This document shows, in pieces, positions 24,395-35,939 of a stretch of DNA of 42,682 bases. The notes below the pieces were generated by a model. That model worked only from the letters and a program-made list of their open reading frames with translations. It had not been told where the DNA came from and did no database searches. Numbering within the stretch: position 1 is the first letter of the stretch; each line of letters opens with the position of its first letter. A program made the position numbers and the translations under genes. This DNA is from a virus (Duplodnaviria; Heunggongvirae; Uroviricota; Caudoviricetes), in the IMG/VR virus record IMGVR_UViG_2703718834_000012. One strand, written 5' to 3'.

Positions 24395-25447
24395 TTATTC
24401 CCCTGTTAACGCCCTTATTTCCTCCACCGTCTGGCTAAACCTGTCCTCCTCGAGTTCAACGCCGATAGCCTGGCGGCCAAGTTCCAGCGCGATTTTCACG
24501 GTCGAACCGGACCCCATAAAGAAATCAGCCACCACATCACCAGGCTTACTGCTGGCGTTGATGATCTGCCGCAACATGTCAGCGGGTTTTTCGCATGGGT
24601 GTTTACCTGGGTAAAACTGAACGGGTTTATGTGTCCAGACGTCGGTATAAGGAACGGATACGGAAACAGAGAAATGCCGCCGAAGCGATTTGTACTCTTC
24701 GAGCAGCTCTGAATACTTGCGATTTAACGAATGCCACATAGCCACCAGCTGGTGGTGTGGTGTTGCCAGTTCGCCGTTCTGGTGCTTTTCGATGGCTACC
24801 TGCGTGAAAAGGGACTGAAGATTCCGGTAGTCTAATTCATTCGGTAATTGCCACTGGCTACCGCTGAACCAGTGAGACACCATGTTCTTCTTTCCAGTCG
24901 CATCGGCTATTTGTTTTGAGGTTATGCCAAGCGCTTCACGTGCATCCCGGAAATAAGAAATTAGGGGAGTCATTACATGCTGCTTCAGCTCGCTTCCCTT
25001 CTCCGCGTAACCGTCGCTCTTTGGTTTATACGGCCCCTGGTAATGCTCAGCGAAGAGGATGCGCTCTGTTGCAGGGAAGTAAGAGCGCAGACTCTCTTTA
25101 TTACAGCCATTCCAGCGGCCCGACGGTTTAGCCCAGATGATGTGGTTCAGGACGTTGAACCGCTCACGCATCATGATCTCAATGTCTGCCGCCAGGCGGT
25201 GACCGGAGAAAAGATAAAGACTGCCAGCAGGTTTAAGCACTCGCCAGAATTGTGCGAGGCACATATCAAGCCAGCGAAGATAATCCTCATCCCCTTTCCA
25301 CTGATTGTCCCAGCCGTTGGGTTTCACTTTGAAGTACGGCGGATCCGTGACTATCAGGTCAATGGAGTTATCAGGGAGAGTGGCGATGTATTGCAGGCTA
25401 TCAGCGTTGACTAACTCGACACTGTTTATATTTACAGTATTTTTCAT
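24395..25447 (-). CDS. DNA methyltransferase, beta-class amino-MTase (N6-adenine or N4-cytosine)
   Basis: 350 aa; N-terminal catalytic DPPY motif (IVTDPPYF) and C-terminal SAM-binding FxGxG (DFFMGSGST). Confidence 0.85.
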   Translation of the reverse strand: MKNTVNINSVELVNADSLQYIATLPDNSIDLIVTDPPYFKVKPNGWDNQWKGDEDYLRWLDMCLAQFWRVLKPAGSLYLFSGHRLAADIEIMMRERFNVLNHIIWAKPSGRWNGCNKESLRSYFPATERILFAEHYQGPYKPKSDGYAEKGSELKQHVMTPLISYFRDAREALGITSKQIADATGKKNMVSHWFSGSQWQLPNELDYRNLQSLFTQVAIEKHQNGELATPHHQLVAMWHSLNRKYSELLEEYKSLRRHFSVSVSVPYTDVWTHKPVQFYPGKHPCEKPADMLRQIINASSKPGDVVADFFMGSGSTVKIALELGRQAIGVELEEDRFSQTVEEIRALTGE

Positions 25448-28710: not shown

Positions 28711-28920
28711 TCACCCCCACGCCTTGCTTTGCCATACCCGGCTCGGGCGAGGCGCGTTGTCGCCTTCCGGCAATTGCGCGCTGACGGTCCAGGTGATGTT
28801 GTCGCGATTCAGGCTGCGCTCTGTCTTTACACCGCGCGCCCGGTATTTCTCCACCAGCTCGTCGGCCTGTTCGGTGGTGCATTCGTGATGGTGGAACCAG
28901 GAAAATTTCATCGCCATCAC
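28711..28920 (-). CDS. Small nin-region protein (NinE-like by position)
   Basis: 69 aa ORF between YbcN-like and YbcO-like genes. Confidence 0.4.
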   Translation of the reverse strand: MMAMKFSWFHHHECTTEQADELVEKYRARGVKTERSLNRDNITWTVSAQLPEGDNAPRPSRVWQSKAWG

Positions 28921-29516
28921 CCCGCAAAGCTCATCAGCTGGGCGGCGGCGTTTTCTGCCTCTTCACAACTGCGAAATGATCGGGAGAGTATCCATCGCCA
29001 CAGAACATCGAGCGCGGCTTTGTACAGCTGCTGGAACTCGGTTTCGTCCATGTTAGCGAAGGCAATACTGCGGGGATGTTTGCGAAGTGTTCCGTCAGGA
29101 AGCTGAATAGCGTCATAGTGACCAGACTCGACGATCACCCAGGCGCGATAAGCATCATAGGATTTGCAGATGCTGATGCTACCGGCGCGCTTATCGGCGA
29201 TGCGGTCCAGATATTGCTCGGCAGCATCCAGCAGTGCGCCTTCGTTTCCACCAAATGCCGCGAGGAATTTAGCATAACCATTTACGAGCTTACGCTCATT
29301 GCTGGATATCGCCCCTCCAGTAGGTTCCCAGTATTCAAACCCGAGATTCAGGAGCGCAAAAAAACGGCGATGGAATGCGGGATTCCTCACCTGGCGAAAT
29401 TCGGCTACCAGCACGGCGCCGAGTTTGATTTTTGATTGCAGAATATCGCTGGTCTCCGGCGTCGCGGGGATCAGGATTCCTGATGACTGCTTGATGAGTT
29501 GTAGTTCGTGCGCCAT
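28917..29516 (-). CDS. Nin-region protein (YbcN/DUF1367-like by position)
   Basis: 199 aa; first gene of the nin-like block. Confidence 0.45.
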   Translation of the reverse strand: MAHELQLIKQSSGILIPATPETSDILQSKIKLGAVLVAEFRQVRNPAFHRRFFALLNLGFEYWEPTGGAISSNERKLVNGYAKFLAAFGGNEGALLDAAEQYLDRIADKRAGSISICKSYDAYRAWVIVESGHYDAIQLPDGTLRKHPRSIAFANMDETEFQQLYKAALDVLWRWILSRSFRSCEEAENAAAQLMSFAG

Positions 29517-29550: not shown

Positions 29551-29799
29551 TCAGACCGTTGATTTCATATTATCAGAAGGTTGGGTTACCCGGTAGCCGA
29601 GACGGTTAATAAACTGCATAAAACCATTAGGAGTAAAGACCTCTTCATCATCCAGCAAAGGCCGCATAGAAACCATGCCATTGACGCGATAAATTAGATG
29701 CCTGCCCGATGAAGGAAAGCTAAACACCACGCAGCCGTCAGACCTTCTTACAATGTCATACCAGTTGTCTTCTGACGTTTGCAAAGCTGAATCACTCAC
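29551..29799 (-). CDS. Hypothetical protein downstream of dinI homologue
   Basis: 82 aa, GTG start with AAGGGAGA RBS. Confidence 0.5.
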   Translation of the reverse strand: MSDSALQTSEDNWYDIVRRSDGCVVFSFPSSGRHLIYRVNGMVSMRPLLDDEEVFTPNGFMQFINRLGYRVTQPSDNMKSTV

Positions 29800-29916
29800 A
29801 TTTATGTTCTCCCTTCGAGCGACTAACAGACGCGATTAAAGATTGTCGGCAGCAGCATCAGAGGGTTACGCAAATTGCGGTATTCTGAAAAATGCGCGCC
29901 AGCCTTAAGCGCAATT

Positions 29917-30150
29917 CTAATAAAACCAGTCGTCAGCGCTTTCCCAGGTATCCTGGAGGATTGATTCAATTTTCTTTTTATCGTCCTTGTCACCACCAAA
30001 AACACTTAACCCATCGGCCCCGGCACGGCGGATTGTGAGCCTGCAATTGTCATAGTGATCATTCAGGCGCTTAAGCAGTTCTTTCTCCAGTGCTGGTACT
30101 GCGCCTTTAGGAAGTTCTTTCATGCGATCAATGGTTAATTCAACTTTCAT
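29917..30150 (-). CDS. dinI: DinI-family protein
   Basis: Start MKVELTIDRMKELPKGAV...; C-terminus ESILQDTWESADDWFY matches E. coli DinI. Confidence 0.85.
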   Translation of the reverse strand: MKVELTIDRMKELPKGAVPALEKELLKRLNDHYDNCRLTIRRAGADGLSVFGGDKDDKKKIESILQDTWESADDWFY

Positions 30151-30168
30151 AATGGCCCCCATTGCATT

Positions 30169-30188
30169 TACTGTGTTTTTATACAGTA
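30169..30188. promoter_or_regulatory. LexA (SOS) box
   Basis: TACTGTGTTTTTATACAGTA, a perfect CTGT-N8-ACAG palindrome, 19 nt upstream of the dinI-like start. Confidence 0.85.
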
Positions 30189-30258
30189 TACCTATGCGCG
30201 GAAATGATCAACGCTTTAAGAGCACAAATTGTTAATTTTCTGTCAGTAGTAAAAAAAG

Positions 30259-30278
30259 AAAACCCGCCGTAGCGGGTT
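30259..30278 (-). terminator. Terminator-like hairpin
   Basis: 7-bp stem AACCCGC/GCGGGTT followed by a T-rich run on the minus strand. Confidence 0.5.
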
Positions 30279-30296
30279 GAATTAGCGATGTTTTAT

Positions 30297-32804: not shown

Positions 32805-33344
32805 TCATATAGCCCCCAGCATAATCTGCACCATTTCCATCAACGGACCGGTTAACCCAGGGTCAACGCGATACATCTCCACGATCCCCTCGCTCAACTC
32901 TTTCAGCTTCTGATGACGTGGCGCATCCATTGCGACAGCAATCTTCGCTTCGCTGGTTTCCTTCTCCAGCCTTGCCAGACGAGCCATTACGTTGTCTTCT
33001 GGTAGCAGACGATTGCGGTATTCAATCGGCAGGACAGCGAGGATTGCCGGAGTCAGCTGGCGAACGTTTTCGCGGTACCGTTCGCTGTTGAAATGGTTAT
33101 CCAGAAAGCGGAAAAGCTTCTGACGCTGTCGGCTGAGGTCATCAGGGAAAGTGATCTCGTCTCCCCCTTGAGCCTGGTACTCTTCGATGATCAGAGCAGA
33201 AACGACATCCTGACCATCTACACCCGCCCACGCACGAACGGCATCGCGGATCTGGTCATGTTTATCTACCGAGACAGGTTGATTGCGATTTATCATCGCA
33301 GCCGTTTGATATCCGCTATTTTGATGAAGTGATAGTGACTGCAT
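32805..33344 (-). CDS. Regulatory protein in cII position (CII/YdaT-like, uncertain)
   Basis: 179 aa directly downstream of cro-like gene; assignment by position. Confidence 0.4.
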   Translation of the reverse strand: MQSLSLHQNSGYQTAAMINRNQPVSVDKHDQIRDAVRAWAGVDGQDVVSALIIEEYQAQGGDEITFPDDLSRQRQKLFRFLDNHFNSERYRENVRQLTPAILAVLPIEYRNRLLPEDNVMARLARLEKETSEAKIAVAMDAPRHQKLKELSEGIVEMYRVDPGLTGPLMEMVQIMLGAI

Positions 33345-33346
33345 GG

Positions 33347-33580
33347 TTATGCCCTCGCTTCCTGAGCCGGTAATCCATCCGTAGGGTTGAGGTACAAATC
33401 AGGGCGTAACTCATGTGGAGTTACACCTGTAGCATTGAAAATAGGAATGACACGGTTAGCCGGTACGAATCCATTGTCACGGTGACGCCAGTGACTGACC
33501 GTCATTGGGGATACATTGAGCTTTTCTGCTAAACGGGTTGCACCCCCTACGATGCATATTGCTTTATCAAGTGCTTTCAT
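33347..33580 (-). CDS. Cro-like HTH regulator
   Basis: Start MKALDKAICIVGGATRLAEKLNVSPMTVSHWRHR at ATG 33578-33580 with GGAG RBS; divergent from repressor. Confidence 0.7.
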   Translation of the reverse strand: MKALDKAICIVGGATRLAEKLNVSPMTVSHWRHRDNGFVPANRVIPIFNATGVTPHELRPDLYLNPTDGLPAQEARA

Positions 33581-33607: not shown

Positions 33608-33653
33608 ATTAAACATTATGTTTATGTTCAAGTCAACATTATGAATGTTGAGG
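33608..33653. promoter_or_regulatory. Immunity-region operators with divergent pR/pRM-like promoters
   Basis: Palindromes TAAACATTATGTTTA (33610-33624) and AACATTATGAATGTT (33635-33649); minus-strand TTGACT-N17-TTTAAT and plus-strand TTGAGG-N16-TAGAAT overlap them. Confidence 0.55.
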
Positions 33654-33683
33654 CGATAAACTTTTAGTTTAGAATCTTGATAT

Positions 33684-34079
33684 ATGAGAAAAAACACACA
33701 CCAAACAGATAACCCGCAGGTTCGGCGGTTAAATGAAATCATCGAGAAGAAGCGCATATCCAAAGCGGATATAGCGAGAATCTGTGGTGTGAGCGCACAA
33801 TCAGTCAACAACTGGTTTGTCAGAGGAGCGATAGGAAAAAGCTCAGCAATAAAACTTGCCGATGCGCTAGGCGTAAGTCTTGAGTGGGTTCTAGGTCAGG
33901 ACGTGGATGCTAAGGACGGTTTGAGACACGACGAACGGAGACTGTTGGAACTCTATAATCAACTCCCAAACGAAGAAGAACAACAGAACATGTTGCGGAT
34001 CGTATCTCTACGGTTGAAAGAACTCGATGAACTGTACGCCAAGTACATGGGACGGCGGATTAAGGGGGATGGTGAGTAG
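33684..34079 (+). CDS. CI-like prophage repressor (short, HTH only)
   Basis: 131 aa; XRE-type HTH (ISKADIARICGVSAQSVNNWF); no LexA-like S24 autocleavage domain; apparently leaderless start. Confidence 0.8.
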   Translation: MRKNTHQTDNPQVRRLNEIIEKKRISKADIARICGVSAQSVNNWFVRGAIGKSSAIKLADALGVSLEWVLGQDVDAKDGLRHDERRLLELYNQLPNEEEQQNMLRIVSLRLKELDELYAKYMGRRIKGDGE

Positions 34080-34151
34080 CACGGTAGTTAAAAGCTACTT
34101 ACCCCTCAGATGTTTCTGTACCAATGGGATACATCTTAACGATATGCAAAA

Positions 34152-34180
34152 TTCACTTACCAGTTAATTATCATTATATT
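34152..34180 (+). promoter_or_regulatory. Candidate sigma70 promoter for immunity-region cassette
   Basis: TTCACT-N17-TATATT about 10 nt upstream of the cassette start. Confidence 0.35.
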
Positions 34181-34190
34181 GAGAGCTGAG

Positions 34191-34514
34191 ATGGGCGAAC
34201 AGGTTGAAGAAGAAAAAAGTCAGGAAAGTGTCAATACAACAGCATTGACGCTATCAATATCAAGACAAGAATTTCGAGATTATTTTCAACGCCTCGAAGA
34301 AAAACATGGCGAGATGGCCTGTCCGCTTTGTAAGCATACGCTTTGGGGAGTTCCTCCACGAGAAGATAGTCAAGACTATCCTGCAATAATTACCCTTCCT
34401 CTACCTCATTCAGCTGGCCGAGGTATATGGGCATTCCCTGTTATATGTGTAGAATGTGGTTTCATTGCCACATTTGCTGCTAACCGAGTATCACTAAAGG
34501 TTCGAGAGGGATAA
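34191..34514 (+). CDS. Hypothetical zinc-ribbon protein (cassette gene 1)
   Basis: 107 aa from ATG 34191 (track start at 34179 is TTG); CPLCKH...CVECG Cys pairs; AT-rich. Confidence 0.55.
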   Translation: MGEQVEEEKSQESVNTTALTLSISRQEFRDYFQRLEEKHGEMACPLCKHTLWGVPPREDSQDYPAIITLPLPHSAGRGIWAFPVICVECGFIATFAANRVSLKVREG

Positions 34515-34516
34515 CA

Positions 34517-34900
34517 GTGGCTGCAGTTTGCTTAGATCATCAATCAAGCTCAATTATTTCGATTGATCGGGTTGAAGTATTTGAGACCTTCCCAAAAATC
34601 GAAAATCATGTTGGCGATATTCCTTACACACTTGATGAATCCAGGATATTGTTGCTAAGGAACAGTGTTTCACATCCTGATAGCTGTGTTGGGCTGAAAG
34701 CATTTTCTGTCGCGCTAATAGTGATGCTAGGTGTTATAGTGTGGTTAACAGGAGGTAAGGTTATGTACTATATCCCTCTTTACGCAGCACTCATACCAGT
34801 AGCTTATTGGTTAGTTAAGATTGGATTTGCGTATTATGTAGTCAAAACACAAAAGTTACATGTTGACTCGAAATCGTTCTCGGGAAAAAATCATGGCTAA
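34517..34900 (+). CDS. Hypothetical membrane protein (cassette gene 2)
   Basis: 127 aa, GTG start with GAGAGGG RBS 2 nt after upstream stop; two predicted TM helices. Confidence 0.55.
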   Translation: MAAVCLDHQSSSIISIDRVEVFETFPKIENHVGDIPYTLDESRILLLRNSVSHPDSCVGLKAFSVALIVMLGVIVWLTGGKVMYYIPLYAALIPVAYWLVKIGFAYYVVKTQKLHVDSKSFSGKNHG

Positions 34901-35318
34901 CGATAACGTTAAAAATGTAGCTAAAAATGGACTACCTTTTCTAATTGTCTCCCTCATATGTGGTTATGCTACAGATGCTATTCCTATCTTCTTTCCTGAC
35001 GGTGAGTTTCGTGATTGGGCCTACAGATCTGTTCCTTTTCTGTCTTTGATTCTTCTTTTTGTAATCAAAACGTTAAAGGATTTTGGTGGAATGTCATTTA
35101 CAGGTCTGTTATTTACAATATGCTCAAGCCGAGAAAAGAAAAGGCTAAAGATCATTATGGATGACAATCACGCTAGTGATGCGACCATGCAAGCAGCAAA
35201 AAAACGTTATGACGAAATATTACAAAAAGAACTCGAGTTAAGCTCAAGGTTGCTGACCTACATTTCTCAGTGGTCGATCTTTAAGAAAGCACCGACCCCC
35301 CCATCATCTGTTGAATAA
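34893..35318 (+). CDS. Hypothetical membrane protein (cassette gene 3)
   Basis: Start MANDNVKN overlapping upstream stop by 8 nt; 2-3 hydrophobic helices then charged helical tail. Confidence 0.55.
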   Translation: MANDNVKNVAKNGLPFLIVSLICGYATDAIPIFFPDGEFRDWAYRSVPFLSLILLFVIKTLKDFGGMSFTGLLFTICSSREKKRLKIIMDDNHASDATMQAAKKRYDEILQKELELSSRLLTYISQWSIFKKAPTPPSSVE

Positions 35319-35324
35319 AGCAAT

Positions 35325-35351
35325 AACCCAGTTACCGAACTGGGTTTTTTA
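35325..35351 (+). terminator. Rho-independent terminator
   Basis: Perfect 8-bp stem ACCCAGTT/AACTGGGT, loop ACCG, then TTTTTTA. Confidence 0.7.
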
Positions 35352-35555
35352 TTGCCCTTTTCTCACCATAGCAGCCGCATCCCGCAATACCCACTTGTGA
35401 ATGACGTTTCCCACTACCCTGCGCTTAGCCTCTAGACTATCCACAATCGCATCGCGGCTGATCACAATCCCGTTAGCTATCAGACTGACAACTGCGCCAC
35501 CAATCTCCCCCGCAATAAACGCTGCGCGGTCTTCTTCCAGTTCGTCACGATCCAT
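35349..35555 (-). CDS. Hypothetical protein, divergent from pL operon
   Basis: 68 aa with GAGGGTGA RBS; non-repetitive sequence. Confidence 0.45.
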   Translation of the reverse strand: MDRDELEEDRAAFIAGEIGGAVVSLIANGIVISRDAIVDSLEAKRRVVGNVIHKWVLRDAAAMVRKGQ

Positions 35556-35667
35556 AACTCACCCTCATCGATTTTTTTATAACCACAAAATAGACCACAA
35601 AACATACTACTCGTGCCAACGAGCGCAACCAACTAAACTTTTTGTTTATATAAAAACACTCATTATG

Positions 35668-35696
35668 TTGACACGTAAATAAACATTGTGTTTAAT
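35668..35696 (+). promoter_or_regulatory. pL-like promoter with overlapping operator (OL)
   Basis: TTGACA-N17-TTTAAT; palindrome TAAACATTGTGTTTA (35680-35694) matches the OR1-type site 14/15. Confidence 0.55.
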
Positions 35697-35939
35697 TACT
35701 CCATCAACACAACCACCAAAGCAGGACGCCCACGAAGAAGCTGTCCGGGGCATACGAAGACCGGAATGAGGTGGTGAGATTAACGCGCAGTAGGTTTGAA
35801 ACGTTCCGCCAGCCTGGCGACAAGGGCAAAGCACAGAGTGAGCTTCGCGGTGGTGAATTGCAGAGTTAAAACGCTCAACCGTGAAGATCAGCGCCGCGGC
35901 ATCACCAGCGAAGTTCACTCAGAAAAACTGGAGAACATC

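What the first reader, a model, noticed from the sequence alone, without database searches (positions are those of the whole stretch)
33608..35696. Shared operator palindrome at both early promoters
The same 15-bp palindrome type occurs over the -10 of the cro promoter (TAAACATTATGTTTA) and over the -10 of the pL-like promoter 2 kb away (TAAACATTGTGTTTA, 14/15). A related site (AACATTATGAATGTT) overlaps the -35 elements in the cI-cro spacer. Both early promoters share a TTGAC(A/T)-N17-TTTAAT layout, which defines the immunity specificity of this phage.
Basis: seen in the sequence. Interest (0 to 1): 0.45.

Follow-up and report, generated by a model that had tools for sequence, protein, structure and literature searches.

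The report
Repressor operators of a Gifsy-like prophage
The repeated palindrome is real and is best read as the binding site of this E. coli prophage's lysogeny repressor, laid out as two three-site operators like those of phage lambda, so it is an ordinary switch whose DNA recognition sequence can now be stated.

Summary
The conserved element is TAAAC-N5-GTTTA. It occurs exactly four times in the 42.7-kb window, against about 0 expected: 33610 and 33657 flank the divergent cro/cI promoters, and 35634 and 35680 sit at the pL-like promoter. A weaker middle site lies 23 bp from each promoter-proximal site, at 33633-33647 and 35657-35671. That gives two tripartite operators with lambda-like spacing.

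In 16 related loci (215 kb), all 62 exact matches fall at these four positions. The arms stay constant while the central 5 bp vary. Heteroimmune relatives keep the same architecture, but their arms differ (for example TAAGC-N5-GCTTA) together with the recognition helices of both the CI-like and Cro-like proteins.

The repressor is a 131-aa protein with no cleavage domain, of the Gifsy GfoR/GfhR kind. The window also carries the expected LexA box, dinI and a small candidate antirepressor ORF.

No binding was measured; every functional statement is comparative inference. This is a new member of a known kind, of modest interest.

The parts
33610..33624 (.). O_R1, strong operator TAAACATTATGTTTA. 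It covers the spacer and the first 4 nt of the PR -10 hexamer.
   Evidence: Exact core match. Same position in all 16 loci. Top PWM score in the window.
33633..33647 (.). O_R2, inferred weak operator TCAACATTATGAATG. It lies 23 bp from O_R1 and 24 bp from O_R3. It overlaps the PR -35 element and abuts the PRM -35 element.
   Evidence: Best intermediate PWM position at offset +23 in 29 of 30 operator regions. In the per-locus PWM rerun it scores at the 99.94th percentile of the window. Middle sites of heteroimmune relatives match their own operator type at +23/24. Inferred, not shown.
33657..33671 (.). O_R3, strong operator TAAACTTTTAGTTTA. It overlaps the spacer and the first 2 nt of the PRM -10 hexamer.
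33608..33636 (-). PR-like promoter for cro/ydaT/replication genes: TTGACT (33636..33631), 17 nt, TTTAAT (33613..33608).
   Evidence: Read from the sequence. GTCAAC and GTTTAAT are invariant across the loci. Not listed by the consensus scan because the -10 hexamer lacks A at position 2.
33648..33675 (+). PRM-like promoter for the repressor gene: TTGAGG, 16 nt, TAGAAT. The ATG lies 8 nt after the -10 hexamer, so the mRNA is leaderless or nearly so.
   Evidence: Promoter scan. TTGaG and gAAT are conserved. In relatives the arrangement is TAGAAT, 6 nt, ATG. No Shine-Dalgarno sequence upstream.
33684..34079 (+). CI-like immunity repressor, 131 aa. It has an N-terminal 5-helix HTH domain and a C-terminal helical domain, and no S24 autocleavage domain.
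   Evidence: Pfam HTH_3 and Phage_CI_repr. PHROG transcriptional regulator/repressor families. AlphaFold2 model with pLDDT 84.7. The N-terminal domain superposes on 434 and P22 c2 repressor DNA-binding domains at 2.1-2.5 A rmsd, though no Foldseek match reached E <= 0.001. 74% identical to the Salmonella Gifsy-type repressor P0105.
33347..33580 (-). Cro-like protein, 77 aa, of the YdaS / all-alpha Cro family. Probably the second protein that binds the same operators.
   Evidence: Pfam YdaS_toxin 7.6e-16 and P22_Cro. Match to PDB 3bd1 Cro protein. Its recognition helix changes with immunity type.
32805..33344 (-). YdaT / CII-like regulator, 179 aa. Part of the immunity module; not shown to bind these sites.
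   Evidence: Pfam YdaT_toxin. PHROG CII-like activator 1e-57. Match to PDB 8bt1.
34191..35318 (+). Three accessory ORFs co-oriented with the repressor gene, in the position of lambda rexAB. Function unknown.
   Evidence: ORF list. No informative family match. This segment is replaced by other genes in relatives, and the O_R1-O_L1 distance ranges from 701 to 2908 bp.
35325..35346 (.). Bidirectional intrinsic-terminator-like hairpin ending the repressor operon.
   Evidence: Terminator scan, reported on both strands.
35634..35648 (.). O_L3, strong operator TAAACTTTTTGTTTA, upstream of the pL -35 element.
   Evidence: (families D5 and I7).
35657..35671 (.). O_L2, inferred weak operator. It reads TCAACATAATGAGTG on the minus strand and overlaps the pL -35 element.
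   Evidence: Offset +23 from O_L1 in all 15 loci scored. Scores at the 99.95th percentile of the window.
35680..35694 (.). O_L1, strong operator TAAACATTGTGTTTA, over the spacer and -10 hexamer of pL.
35668..35696 (+). pL-like promoter: TTGACA, 17 nt, TTTAAT. It reads into kil, small ORFs and recE.
   Evidence: Read from the sequence. The leader immediately downstream (35688-35800) is 94% identical to the same position in the functional phage mEp237. Kil family match.
29551..30189 (-). Candidate induction module. It contains a LexA box TACTGTGTTTTTATACAGTA (30170-30189), a dinI homologue (29917..30162) and an 82-aa GTG-start ORF (29551..29799). The ORF sits where the Gifsy antirepressor gene lies, and a DUF1367 gene follows it.
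   Evidence: The layout matches the description of Gifsy prophages in PMC3121763. The 82-aa ORF is 91% identical to the ORF at the same position in the Salmonella prophage L022.

Best explanation
The palindromes are the operators of the prophage's lysis/lysogeny switch. The recognition unit is a 15-bp dyad, TAAAC-N5-GTTTA, read by a dimer of the 131-aa CI-like HTH repressor. The YdaS-family Cro encoded on the other side of the divergent promoters most probably reads it too.

Each control region is tripartite: a strong O1, a weak O2 23 bp away, and a strong O3 a further 23-24 bp away.

- Repressor at O_R1 and O_L1 covers the spacer and -10 hexamer of PR and pL. This shuts off cro/ydaT/replication genes in one direction and kil/recE in the other.
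- O_R2 abuts the -35 element of the repressor's own near-leaderless promoter, as lambda O_R2 does.
- O_R3 overlaps that promoter's -10 hexamer. It would give negative autoregulation, or shut-off by Cro.

The repressor has no cleavage domain. Induction should therefore go through the LexA-controlled dinI/antirepressor operon at 29551-30189, as in Salmonella Gifsy prophages.

What is shown: the sites, their non-random occurrence, their conservation, their covariation with the recognition helices, and the gene content. What is inferred: which protein binds which site, the order of occupancy, cooperativity, any O_L-O_R looping, the exact transcription starts, and the antirepressor function.
For: - Exactly four core sites in the window and none in shuffles. 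They are also the four top PWM scores, 18-23 bits against 4 bits or less elsewhere.
- In 16 loci totalling 215,408 bases, all 62 exact matches lie at the four operator positions and none elsewhere. The arms are invariant, the centre and spacers vary, and the O1-O3 spacing is fixed at 47 and 46 bp. The O_R-O_L distance meanwhile ranges from 701 to 2908 bp.
- The repressor's helix-turn-helix (ARICGVSAQSVNNWFVRG) is nearly invariant across homologues of 72-95% identity.
- Relatives with other helices have other arms in the same 2+1+2+1 layout. SW-37 and SEN34 have TAAGC-N5-GCTTA, mEp237 gp39 and ST846phi9.2 have TAAAGC..TTTA, and PHB10 has TAAACC-N3-GATTTA.
- The Cro recognition helix changes in step with the operator type.
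- The repressor's DNA-binding domain resembles those of 434 and P22 c2 repressors, though the Foldseek E-values are weak.
- The LexA box, dinI and 82-aa ORF layout matches Gifsy.
Against: - No binding, footprint or transcription-start data exist for this sequence. None were found in the searchable literature either.
- The -10 hexamer TTTAAT lacks the normally critical A at position 2, and the consensus scan did not call it.
- O2 is weak. It matches 6-7 of 10 arm positions, and its left arm coincides with the -35 TTGAC, so part of its conservation could be promoter constraint alone.
- In mEp237 and ST846phi9.2 a middle site is not clearly detectable.
- Assigning the sites to CI rather than Cro alone rests on analogy with lambda.
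Confidence: 0.8

Rival explanations
1. The similarity between the two regions is only a legacy of promoter duplication or recombination. On this view PR and pL share ancestry, and the palindromes have no protein-binding role.
For: The whole 43-nt block is an 81% inverted repeat, not just the palindrome. The -35 and -10 elements lie inside it.
Against: - O_R3 and O_L3 lie outside that 43-nt block and are still exact core matches.
- Across 16 loci the arms are invariant while the neighbouring spacers and the 5-bp centres drift.
- O_L3 has no evident promoter element to preserve it.
- The arms change together with the HTH helices in heteroimmune relatives.
Confidence: 0.04
2. The dyads are bound by only one of the two regulators. 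For example, the YdaS-like Cro alone might bind them, or the CI-like protein alone, with the other regulator using different or only partly overlapping sequences. This was left open for PaaR2 and YdaS in prophage CP-933P.
For: In CP-933P two overlapping repeat classes were seen, and the precise sites of each protein were not resolved (PMC8630535). In Rac, YdaS did not repress racR (PMC9638921). O1-type and O3-type sites here differ consistently in their inner bases: TAAACA..TGTTTA against TAAAC(T/A)TTT(A/G)GTTTA.
Against: Both the CI-like and the Cro-like recognition helices are conserved within the TAAAC group and change in heteroimmune relatives. That is what is expected if both proteins read the same arms. 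No second conserved repeat class was found in the intergenic region.
Confidence: 0.12
3. That is one operator per promoter, TAAACAT-N-ATGTTTA, plus a genuine third palindromic operator AACAT-N5-ATGTT centred on 33642.
For: All three sequences exist as described. The middle palindrome has perfect 5+5 arms in the window.
Against: - Two further exact core sites exist, at 33657 and 35634.
- The inner bases of the 7+7 palindrome vary among relatives: ATTAT, ATAAT, ATATT, AAAAT, ACAAA.
- The AACAT/ATGTT symmetry is lost without compensation in relatives. Examples are AACTTTTTGAGTGTT and AACATTTTGAATATT.
- Its arms do not match the conserved arms. The register 2 bp to the left scores best in 29 of 30 regions.
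Confidence: 0.04

Closest known systems
Phage lambda O_R/O_L with CI and Cro (established textbook knowledge; also summarised in PMC8630535)
   Same: - Divergent PR/PRM with three dyad sites, and the same site type repeated three times at PL on the far side of the cI operon.
- Outer-site spacing of 47 bp at O_R. Lambda has 24 + 23 bp; here it is 23 + 24 bp.
- O1 lies over the -10 hexamer of the lytic promoter, O2 next to the PRM -35 element, and O3 over PRM.
- The repressor mRNA is leaderless or nearly so.
- Accessory genes and a terminator lie between cI and O_L.
   Different: - The dyad is 15 bp, TAAAC-N5-GTTTA, not the 17-bp lambda operator.
- The repressor is 131 aa with no S24 cleavage domain.
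- Cro is an all-alpha YdaS-type protein.
- CII is replaced by a YdaT-type protein.
- Cooperativity and looping have not been tested here.
Salmonella Gifsy-1/Gifsy-3 repressors GfoR/GfhR with LexA-controlled antirepressors GfoA/GfhA (Lemire et al. 2011, PMC3121763)
   Same: - A short, non-cleavable CI-like repressor.
- The Salmonella homologue P0105 is 74% identical with the same HTH. Like gfoR and gfhR it is followed by a parA-like gene, and it has the same four operator sites.
- A LexA box, dinI, a small GTG-start ORF and an irsA-position DUF1367 gene lie downstream of the replication genes.
- RecE/RecT-type left operon.
   Different: - The host here is E. coli.
- The genes following the repressor differ, with no parA-like gene.
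- The paper does not give operator sequences for GfoR or GfhR in its text.
- Identity of P0105 with GfoR was inferred from gene context and from annotation notes in mEp237. It was not checked against the ATCC14028 sequence.
CP-933P PaaR2 / YdaS / YdaT switch of E. coli O157:H7 (Jurenas et al. 2021, PMC8630535)
   Same: - Same gene order: repressor, then divergent ydaS and ydaT.
- Leaderless repressor gene.
- Repeated sites at PR/PRM and again at a PL-like promoter.
- Both the repressor and YdaS footprint over the intergenic region and repress PR and PL.
   Different: - PaaR2 is not detectably homologous to this repressor (BLASTP E = 3.5).
[quoted passage not shown]
- A paaA2-parE2 toxin-antitoxin pair follows the repressor gene there.
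Rac prophage RacR / YdaS / YdaT (PMC9638921, PMC5700373)
   Same: A short repressor divergent from ydaS-ydaT, three inverted repeats in the intergenic region, and a RecE-type prophage.
   Different: RacR sites are (T/A)TAGGC-N3-GCCTA(T/A), and O3 overlaps the racR start codon. Homology between RacR and this protein was not tested here. NCBIfam gives only a sub-threshold DicA-family match, 28 bits against a cutoff of 101.

Membership tests
Lambda-type tripartite operator switch (O_R/O_L) | Divergent lytic and repressor promoters sharing a short intergenic region with multiple copies of one dyad site | tested here: met
   PR, PRM and three sites lie within 33608-33675.
Lambda-type tripartite operator switch (O_R/O_L) | The same dyad type is repeated at the second early promoter, beyond the repressor operon | tested here: met
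   Sites at 35634, 35657 and 35680 with pL at 35668-35696. Conserved in 16 loci.
Lambda-type tripartite operator switch (O_R/O_L) | Operator sequence covaries with the repressor and Cro recognition helices, giving immunity specificity | tested here: met
   At least four operator types with matching helix types.
Lambda-type tripartite operator switch (O_R/O_L) | Repressor and Cro physically bind these sites with opposite order of preference, with cooperative O1-O2 binding and O_L-O_R looping | not testable with these tools
   This needs EMSA, footprinting and reporter assays.
Gifsy-type non-cleavable repressor / LexA-controlled antirepressor system (PMC3121763) | A short CI-like repressor that lacks the LexA/S24-type autocleavage domain | tested here: met
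   131 aa with only HTH families detected. The model shows an HTH domain plus two C-terminal helices.
Gifsy-type non-cleavable repressor / LexA-controlled antirepressor system (PMC3121763) | A LexA box followed by a dinI homologue, a small antirepressor ORF with a non-canonical start, and an irsA homologue, all downstream of the replication genes and preceded by a terminator-like hairpin | tested here: met
   LexA box 30170-30189, dinI 29917..30162, 82-aa GTG-start ORF 29551..29799 and DUF1367 28917..29516. Equivalence of DUF1367 with irsA is assumed from position.
Gifsy-type non-cleavable repressor / LexA-controlled antirepressor system (PMC3121763) | Sequence homology of the repressor to GfoR/GfhR | tested here: inconclusive
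   74% identity to the Salmonella repressor P0105, which is followed by a parA-like gene. 60% identity to mEp237 gp39, which is annotated as similar to a 14028S regulator. The GfoR and GfhR sequences themselves were not available for comparison.
Gifsy-type non-cleavable repressor / LexA-controlled antirepressor system (PMC3121763) | The antirepressor binds the repressor and releases it from DNA, and induction depends on LexA | not testable with these tools
   This needs experiments.
CP-933P PaaR2-type switch | The repressor is homologous to PaaR2 and the operators have GTTTAGTAA half-sites | tested here: not met
   BLASTP E = 3.5 against PaaR2. The CP-933P intergenic sequence differs.

The most novel reading that the evidence does not exclude
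TAAAC-N5-GTTTA may be the shared immunity specificity of a very widespread group of enterobacterial Gifsy-like prophages. The exact repressor sequence is on 692 contigs, and the Salmonella 74% homologue is on over 1000. Other phages may exploit this.

Phage mEp237 carries a second repressor gene, gp38, behind its own repressor. Gp38 has this window's recognition helix, yet the 44-kb mEp237 genome contains no TAAAC-N5-GTTTA site at all. Gp38 would then be an orphan, 'borrowed' immunity gene. It would let an mEp237 lysogen repress incoming phages of this window's immunity type. SEN34 has the same tandem arrangement.
Probability: 0.3. Interest if true: 0.6.

Novelty: new member of a known kind. 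Interest (0 to 1): 0.3.

Why it matters
It gives a concrete, testable recognition sequence and site map for an immunity group that is common in E. coli, Salmonella, Klebsiella, Citrobacter and Enterobacter prophages. That group probably includes a Gifsy-1-type repressor, whose operators I could not find in the searchable literature.

The family comparison gives a small set of paired examples, each linking a recognition helix to an operator arm. These pairs could be used to predict homo- or heteroimmunity among Gifsy-like prophages from sequence alone, and to design specificity-swap experiments.

It does not change how phage switches are understood.

Tried and rejected
- **YdaT site.** I searched the window for the CP-933P YdaT site TTGATT-N6-AATCAA. 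There were 4 hits with 2 mismatches against 2.65 expected, so nothing significant.
- **PaaR2 homology.** Rejected.
- **Solved structures.** A sequence search of solved structures with the repressor found nothing.
- **Fold search.** Only generic HTH_XRE domains came back, none at E <= 0.001.
- **Rfam.** A scan of the whole window found nothing.
- **Promoter scan.** The consensus scan did not list PR or pL because of its rule requiring A at position 2 of the -10 hexamer. I kept the promoter calls on the grounds of position and conservation, and flag this weakness.
- **Literature.** A search for 'mEp237' hit only unrelated DOIs. A search for the exact operator strings returned no paper. Table S1 of PMC8630535, which lists promoter sequences, is not held as text.
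I considered it as a true symmetric operator and rejected that register.
- **O_L3 and a divergent promoter.** I considered that O_L3 might control a divergent promoter for the 68-aa ORF. A TTGGTT-N17-TAGTAT match exists on the minus strand, but the same bases also form a terminator-like hairpin. This is left open.
Full report
**Context**

The window is an E. coli lambdoid prophage of the Rac/Gifsy type. The 2.5-kb region is 99.8-100% identical over at least 94% of its length in only 5 of 5,426 complete E. coli genomes. It appears as mosaic fragments in about 40 more.

The gene order around the finding is as follows.
- O- and P-like replication genes on the minus strand.
- A YdaT/CII-like gene, 32805..33344, minus strand.
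- A YdaS-family Cro-like gene, 33347..33580, minus strand.
- A 103-bp intergenic region.
- A 131-aa CI-like HTH gene, 33684..34079, plus strand.
- Three unknown ORFs running to 35318.
- A bidirectional terminator-like hairpin at 35325-35346.
- A 68-aa ORF on the minus strand.
- The second promoter region, which reads on the plus strand into kil, small ORFs and a 1129-aa RecE.

This is the lambda layout: PRM-cI-rex-terminator-O_L/PL on one side and PR-cro-cII-O-P on the other.

**Checking the observation**

- TAAACATTATGTTTA is at 33610-33624.
- TAAACATTGTGTTTA is at 35680-35694.
- AACATTATGAATGTT is at 33635-33649.
- TTGACT-N17-TTTAAT lies on the minus strand at 33636..33608.
- TTGACA-N17-TTTAAT lies on the plus strand at 35668-35696.

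The repeat finder returns the whole 43-nt block as an 81% inverted repeat spanning 2 kb. A search with up to three mismatches found 7 matches against 0.91 expected. It also exposed two more sites, at 33657 and 35634.

Reducing the pattern to what the four share, TAAAC-N5-GTTTA, gives exactly four matches in 42,682 bases. None occurred in any of 100 shuffles. The four form two pairs: 33610/33657, 47 bp apart, and 35634/35680, 46 bp apart.

**Conservation**

The repressor has hundreds of homologues in Enterobacteriaceae. The exact protein sequence is on 692 contigs. I gathered 16 loci carrying homologues of 72-99% identity.
- The window itself.
- Klebsiella phage ST974-OXA48phi18.2.
- Thirteen genomes of Citrobacter, Raoultella, Siccibacter, Silvania, Enterobacter, Kluyvera, Leclercia and others.
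- A Salmonella Gifsy-like prophage.

In these 215,408 bases there are 62 exact matches to the core. All 62 lie at the four homologous positions. The two positions without an exact match are degenerate O_L3 sites in two of the loci.

The O1-O3 spacing is always 47 bp at O_R and 46 bp at O_L. The O_R-to-O_L distance varies from 701 to 2908 bp, because the accessory genes are swapped.

Column conservation shows several invariant blocks: ATTAAAC and GTTTA at O1, GTCAAC at the -35 element, a central TGA, TTGaG (the PRM -35 element, at O_R only), TAAAC and GTTTA at O3, and gAAT. The 5-bp centres and the inter-site spacers drift.

**The middle site**

A position weight matrix was built from the strong sites. 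It places the best intermediate match at exactly +23 from O1 in 29 of 30 operator regions. In the window these are TCAACATTATGAATG (33633-33647) and, on the minus strand, TCAACATAATGAGTG (35657-35671). Both score at about the 99.95th percentile of the window.

The left arm, TCAAC, coincides with the -35 TTGAC, so its conservation alone is not informative. Two other observations carry more weight.
- The conserved TGA(A/G)T of the right half is present at O_L as well. No PRM -35 element exists there to explain it.
- In heteroimmune relatives the best middle match again falls at +23/24 and resembles their own operator. SEN34 and SW-37, whose strong sites are TAAGC-N5-GCTTA, have CAAGTCCCAGGCGAA and CAAG(T/C)-N5-GCGAA. 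PHB10 has CAAACCATAACTTTA.

I therefore read it as a weak O2. mEp237 and ST846phi9.2 give no clear middle site, so this step is inferred. I put it at about 70%.

Its symmetry is broken without compensation in relatives, for example AACTTTTTGAGTGTT and AACATTTTGAATATT.

**Covariation with the proteins**

Within the TAAAC group the repressor's HTH segment, ARICGVSAQSVNNWFVRG, is almost invariant, although overall identity falls to 72%.

Relatives at 45-67% identity keep a highly similar C-terminal half but have other helices. Their operators have the same architecture with different arms.
- GITPQSVNGWFKKG goes with TAAGC-N5-GCTTA (SW-37; primary repressor of SEN34).
- GVSKQAVS(G/S)WFKTG goes with TAAAGC...TTTA (ST846phi9.2; mEp237 gp39).
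- GVTPQAVNGWFKKG goes with TAAACC-N3-GATTTA (PHB10).

The Cro-like proteins behave in the same way. All TAAAC-group Cros have ...M(T/N)(V/I)SHW(R/K)..., while the heteroimmune ones have SNWK, SRWK, SFWR or SQWK.

The mosaic joint with mEp237 lies immediately after the pL -10 hexamer. From 35688 onward the leader is 94% identical.

**Mechanism proposed**

A repressor dimer reads the two TAAAC arms across a non-contacted, A/T-rich centre. The model of the protein has pLDDT 84.7. It shows a five-helix HTH domain that superposes on the 434 and P22 c2 repressor DNA-binding domains at 2.1-2.5 A, although no Foldseek match reached E <= 0.001. Two C-terminal helices follow, which could mediate dimerisation.
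- O_R1 and O_L1 cover the spacer and four bases of the -10 hexamer of PR and pL, so occupancy blocks RNA polymerase.
- O_R2 is centred about 44 bp upstream of the predicted PRM start. That is the position from which lambda CI activates PRM.
- O_R3 overlaps the PRM -10 hexamer, TAGAAT at 33670-33675. This suits autorepression, or shut-off of the repressor gene by Cro.

The repressor gene has no Shine-Dalgarno sequence. Its ATG lies 8 nt after the -10 hexamer here and 6 nt after it in relatives, so the mRNA is probably leaderless. This was shown experimentally for lambda cI and for paaR2 of CP-933P (PMC8630535).

All of this paragraph is inference from geometry and analogy.

**Induction**

The repressor lacks a cleavage domain. 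The window contains a near-consensus LexA box, TACTGTGTTTTTATACAGTA, at 30170-30189. It lies just upstream of a dinI homologue. An 82-aa GTG-start ORF and a DUF1367 gene follow.

Lemire et al. describe exactly this arrangement for Gifsy prophages. There the small non-canonical-start ORF between dinI and irsA encodes the antirepressor that strips the non-cleavable repressor from DNA (PMC3121763).

The 82-aa ORF is 91% identical to the ORF at the same position in the Salmonella prophage that has the same operators. The Salmonella repressor P0105 is followed by a parA-like gene, as gfoR and gfhR are. I think it is GfoR or a close relative, but I could not verify this against the published sequence.

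**Comparison with known systems**

The switch works like lambda O_R/O_L. By gene content it belongs with the Gifsy GfoR/GfhR-type systems.

It is analogous to the CP-933P PaaR2/YdaS/YdaT switch but not homologous to it. PaaR2 shows no sequence similarity, and its repeats differ. RacR sites are also different.

I found no publication giving these operator sequences. Figures and papers outside the searchable library were not covered.

**Weak points**
- There are no binding data.
- The -10 hexamer TTTAAT lacks the usual A at position 2, so the consensus scan did not call PR or pL. Heteroimmune relatives have TTTACT or CTTAAT at the same place. The GTTTAAT block is invariant in the TAAAC group while the next base varies. 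That favours this hexamer, but the transcription starts need mapping.
- O2 remains inferred.

**Verdict**

This is a real, well-conserved and correctly interpreted operator system. It is a new member of a known kind, of modest interest.

Noticed in passing
L016 3014-3893 and L026 (phage mEp237, whole genome); L017 3090-3902 (phage SEN34): Both phages carry two tandem paralogous short CI-like genes after PRM. mEp237 gp38 is 72.5% identical to the window's repressor and has the same recognition helix, SQSVNNWFVRG. Yet the 44,375-bp mEp237 genome has no TAAAC-N5-GTTTA site, even allowing one mismatch. mEp237's own operators, TAAAGC..TTTA, match gp39. Gp38 looks like an orphan repressor that could give immunity against phages of this window's type.
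   Followed up: partly
window 29551-30280: A LexA box (30170-30189), a dinI homologue, an 82-aa GTG-start ORF (phrog_340, function unknown) and a DUF1367 gene, preceded by a terminator-like hairpin near 30258-30280. This is the layout of the Gifsy antirepressor operon. The 82-aa ORF is 91% identical to its Salmonella counterpart.
   Followed up: partly
window 35349-35633: A conserved 68-aa ORF (phrog_3975, full-length match, function unknown) lies on the minus strand, divergent from pL. A possible TTGGTT-N17-TAGTAT promoter (35632..35604) sits right next to O_L3. The same bases also form a terminator-like hairpin (35624..35609). O_L might therefore control a second divergent gene.
   Followed up: no
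window 25422-25437: A second good LexA-box-like sequence, CTGTTTATATTTACAG, overlaps the start of a 350-aa ORF (24395..25447, minus strand) whose sequence looks like a DNA methyltransferase. I ran no family search on this ORF.
   Followed up: no
window 35688-35800; L016 6006-6119: The pL leader immediately downstream of the -10 hexamer is 94% identical to that of the heteroimmune phage mEp237. It is 88% identical to those of SEN34 and SW-37. The mosaic junction therefore falls exactly at the edge of O_L1. Nothing in Rfam matches this conserved leader.
   Followed up: partly
window 34191-35318: Three ORFs of unknown function occupy the rexAB-like slot behind the repressor gene. Two of them have hydrophobic stretches, judged by eye from the translations. 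Relatives carry entirely different cargo in this slot, such as parA-like genes, HicAB or IS1. This points to a hotspot for accessory or defence genes.
   Followed up: no
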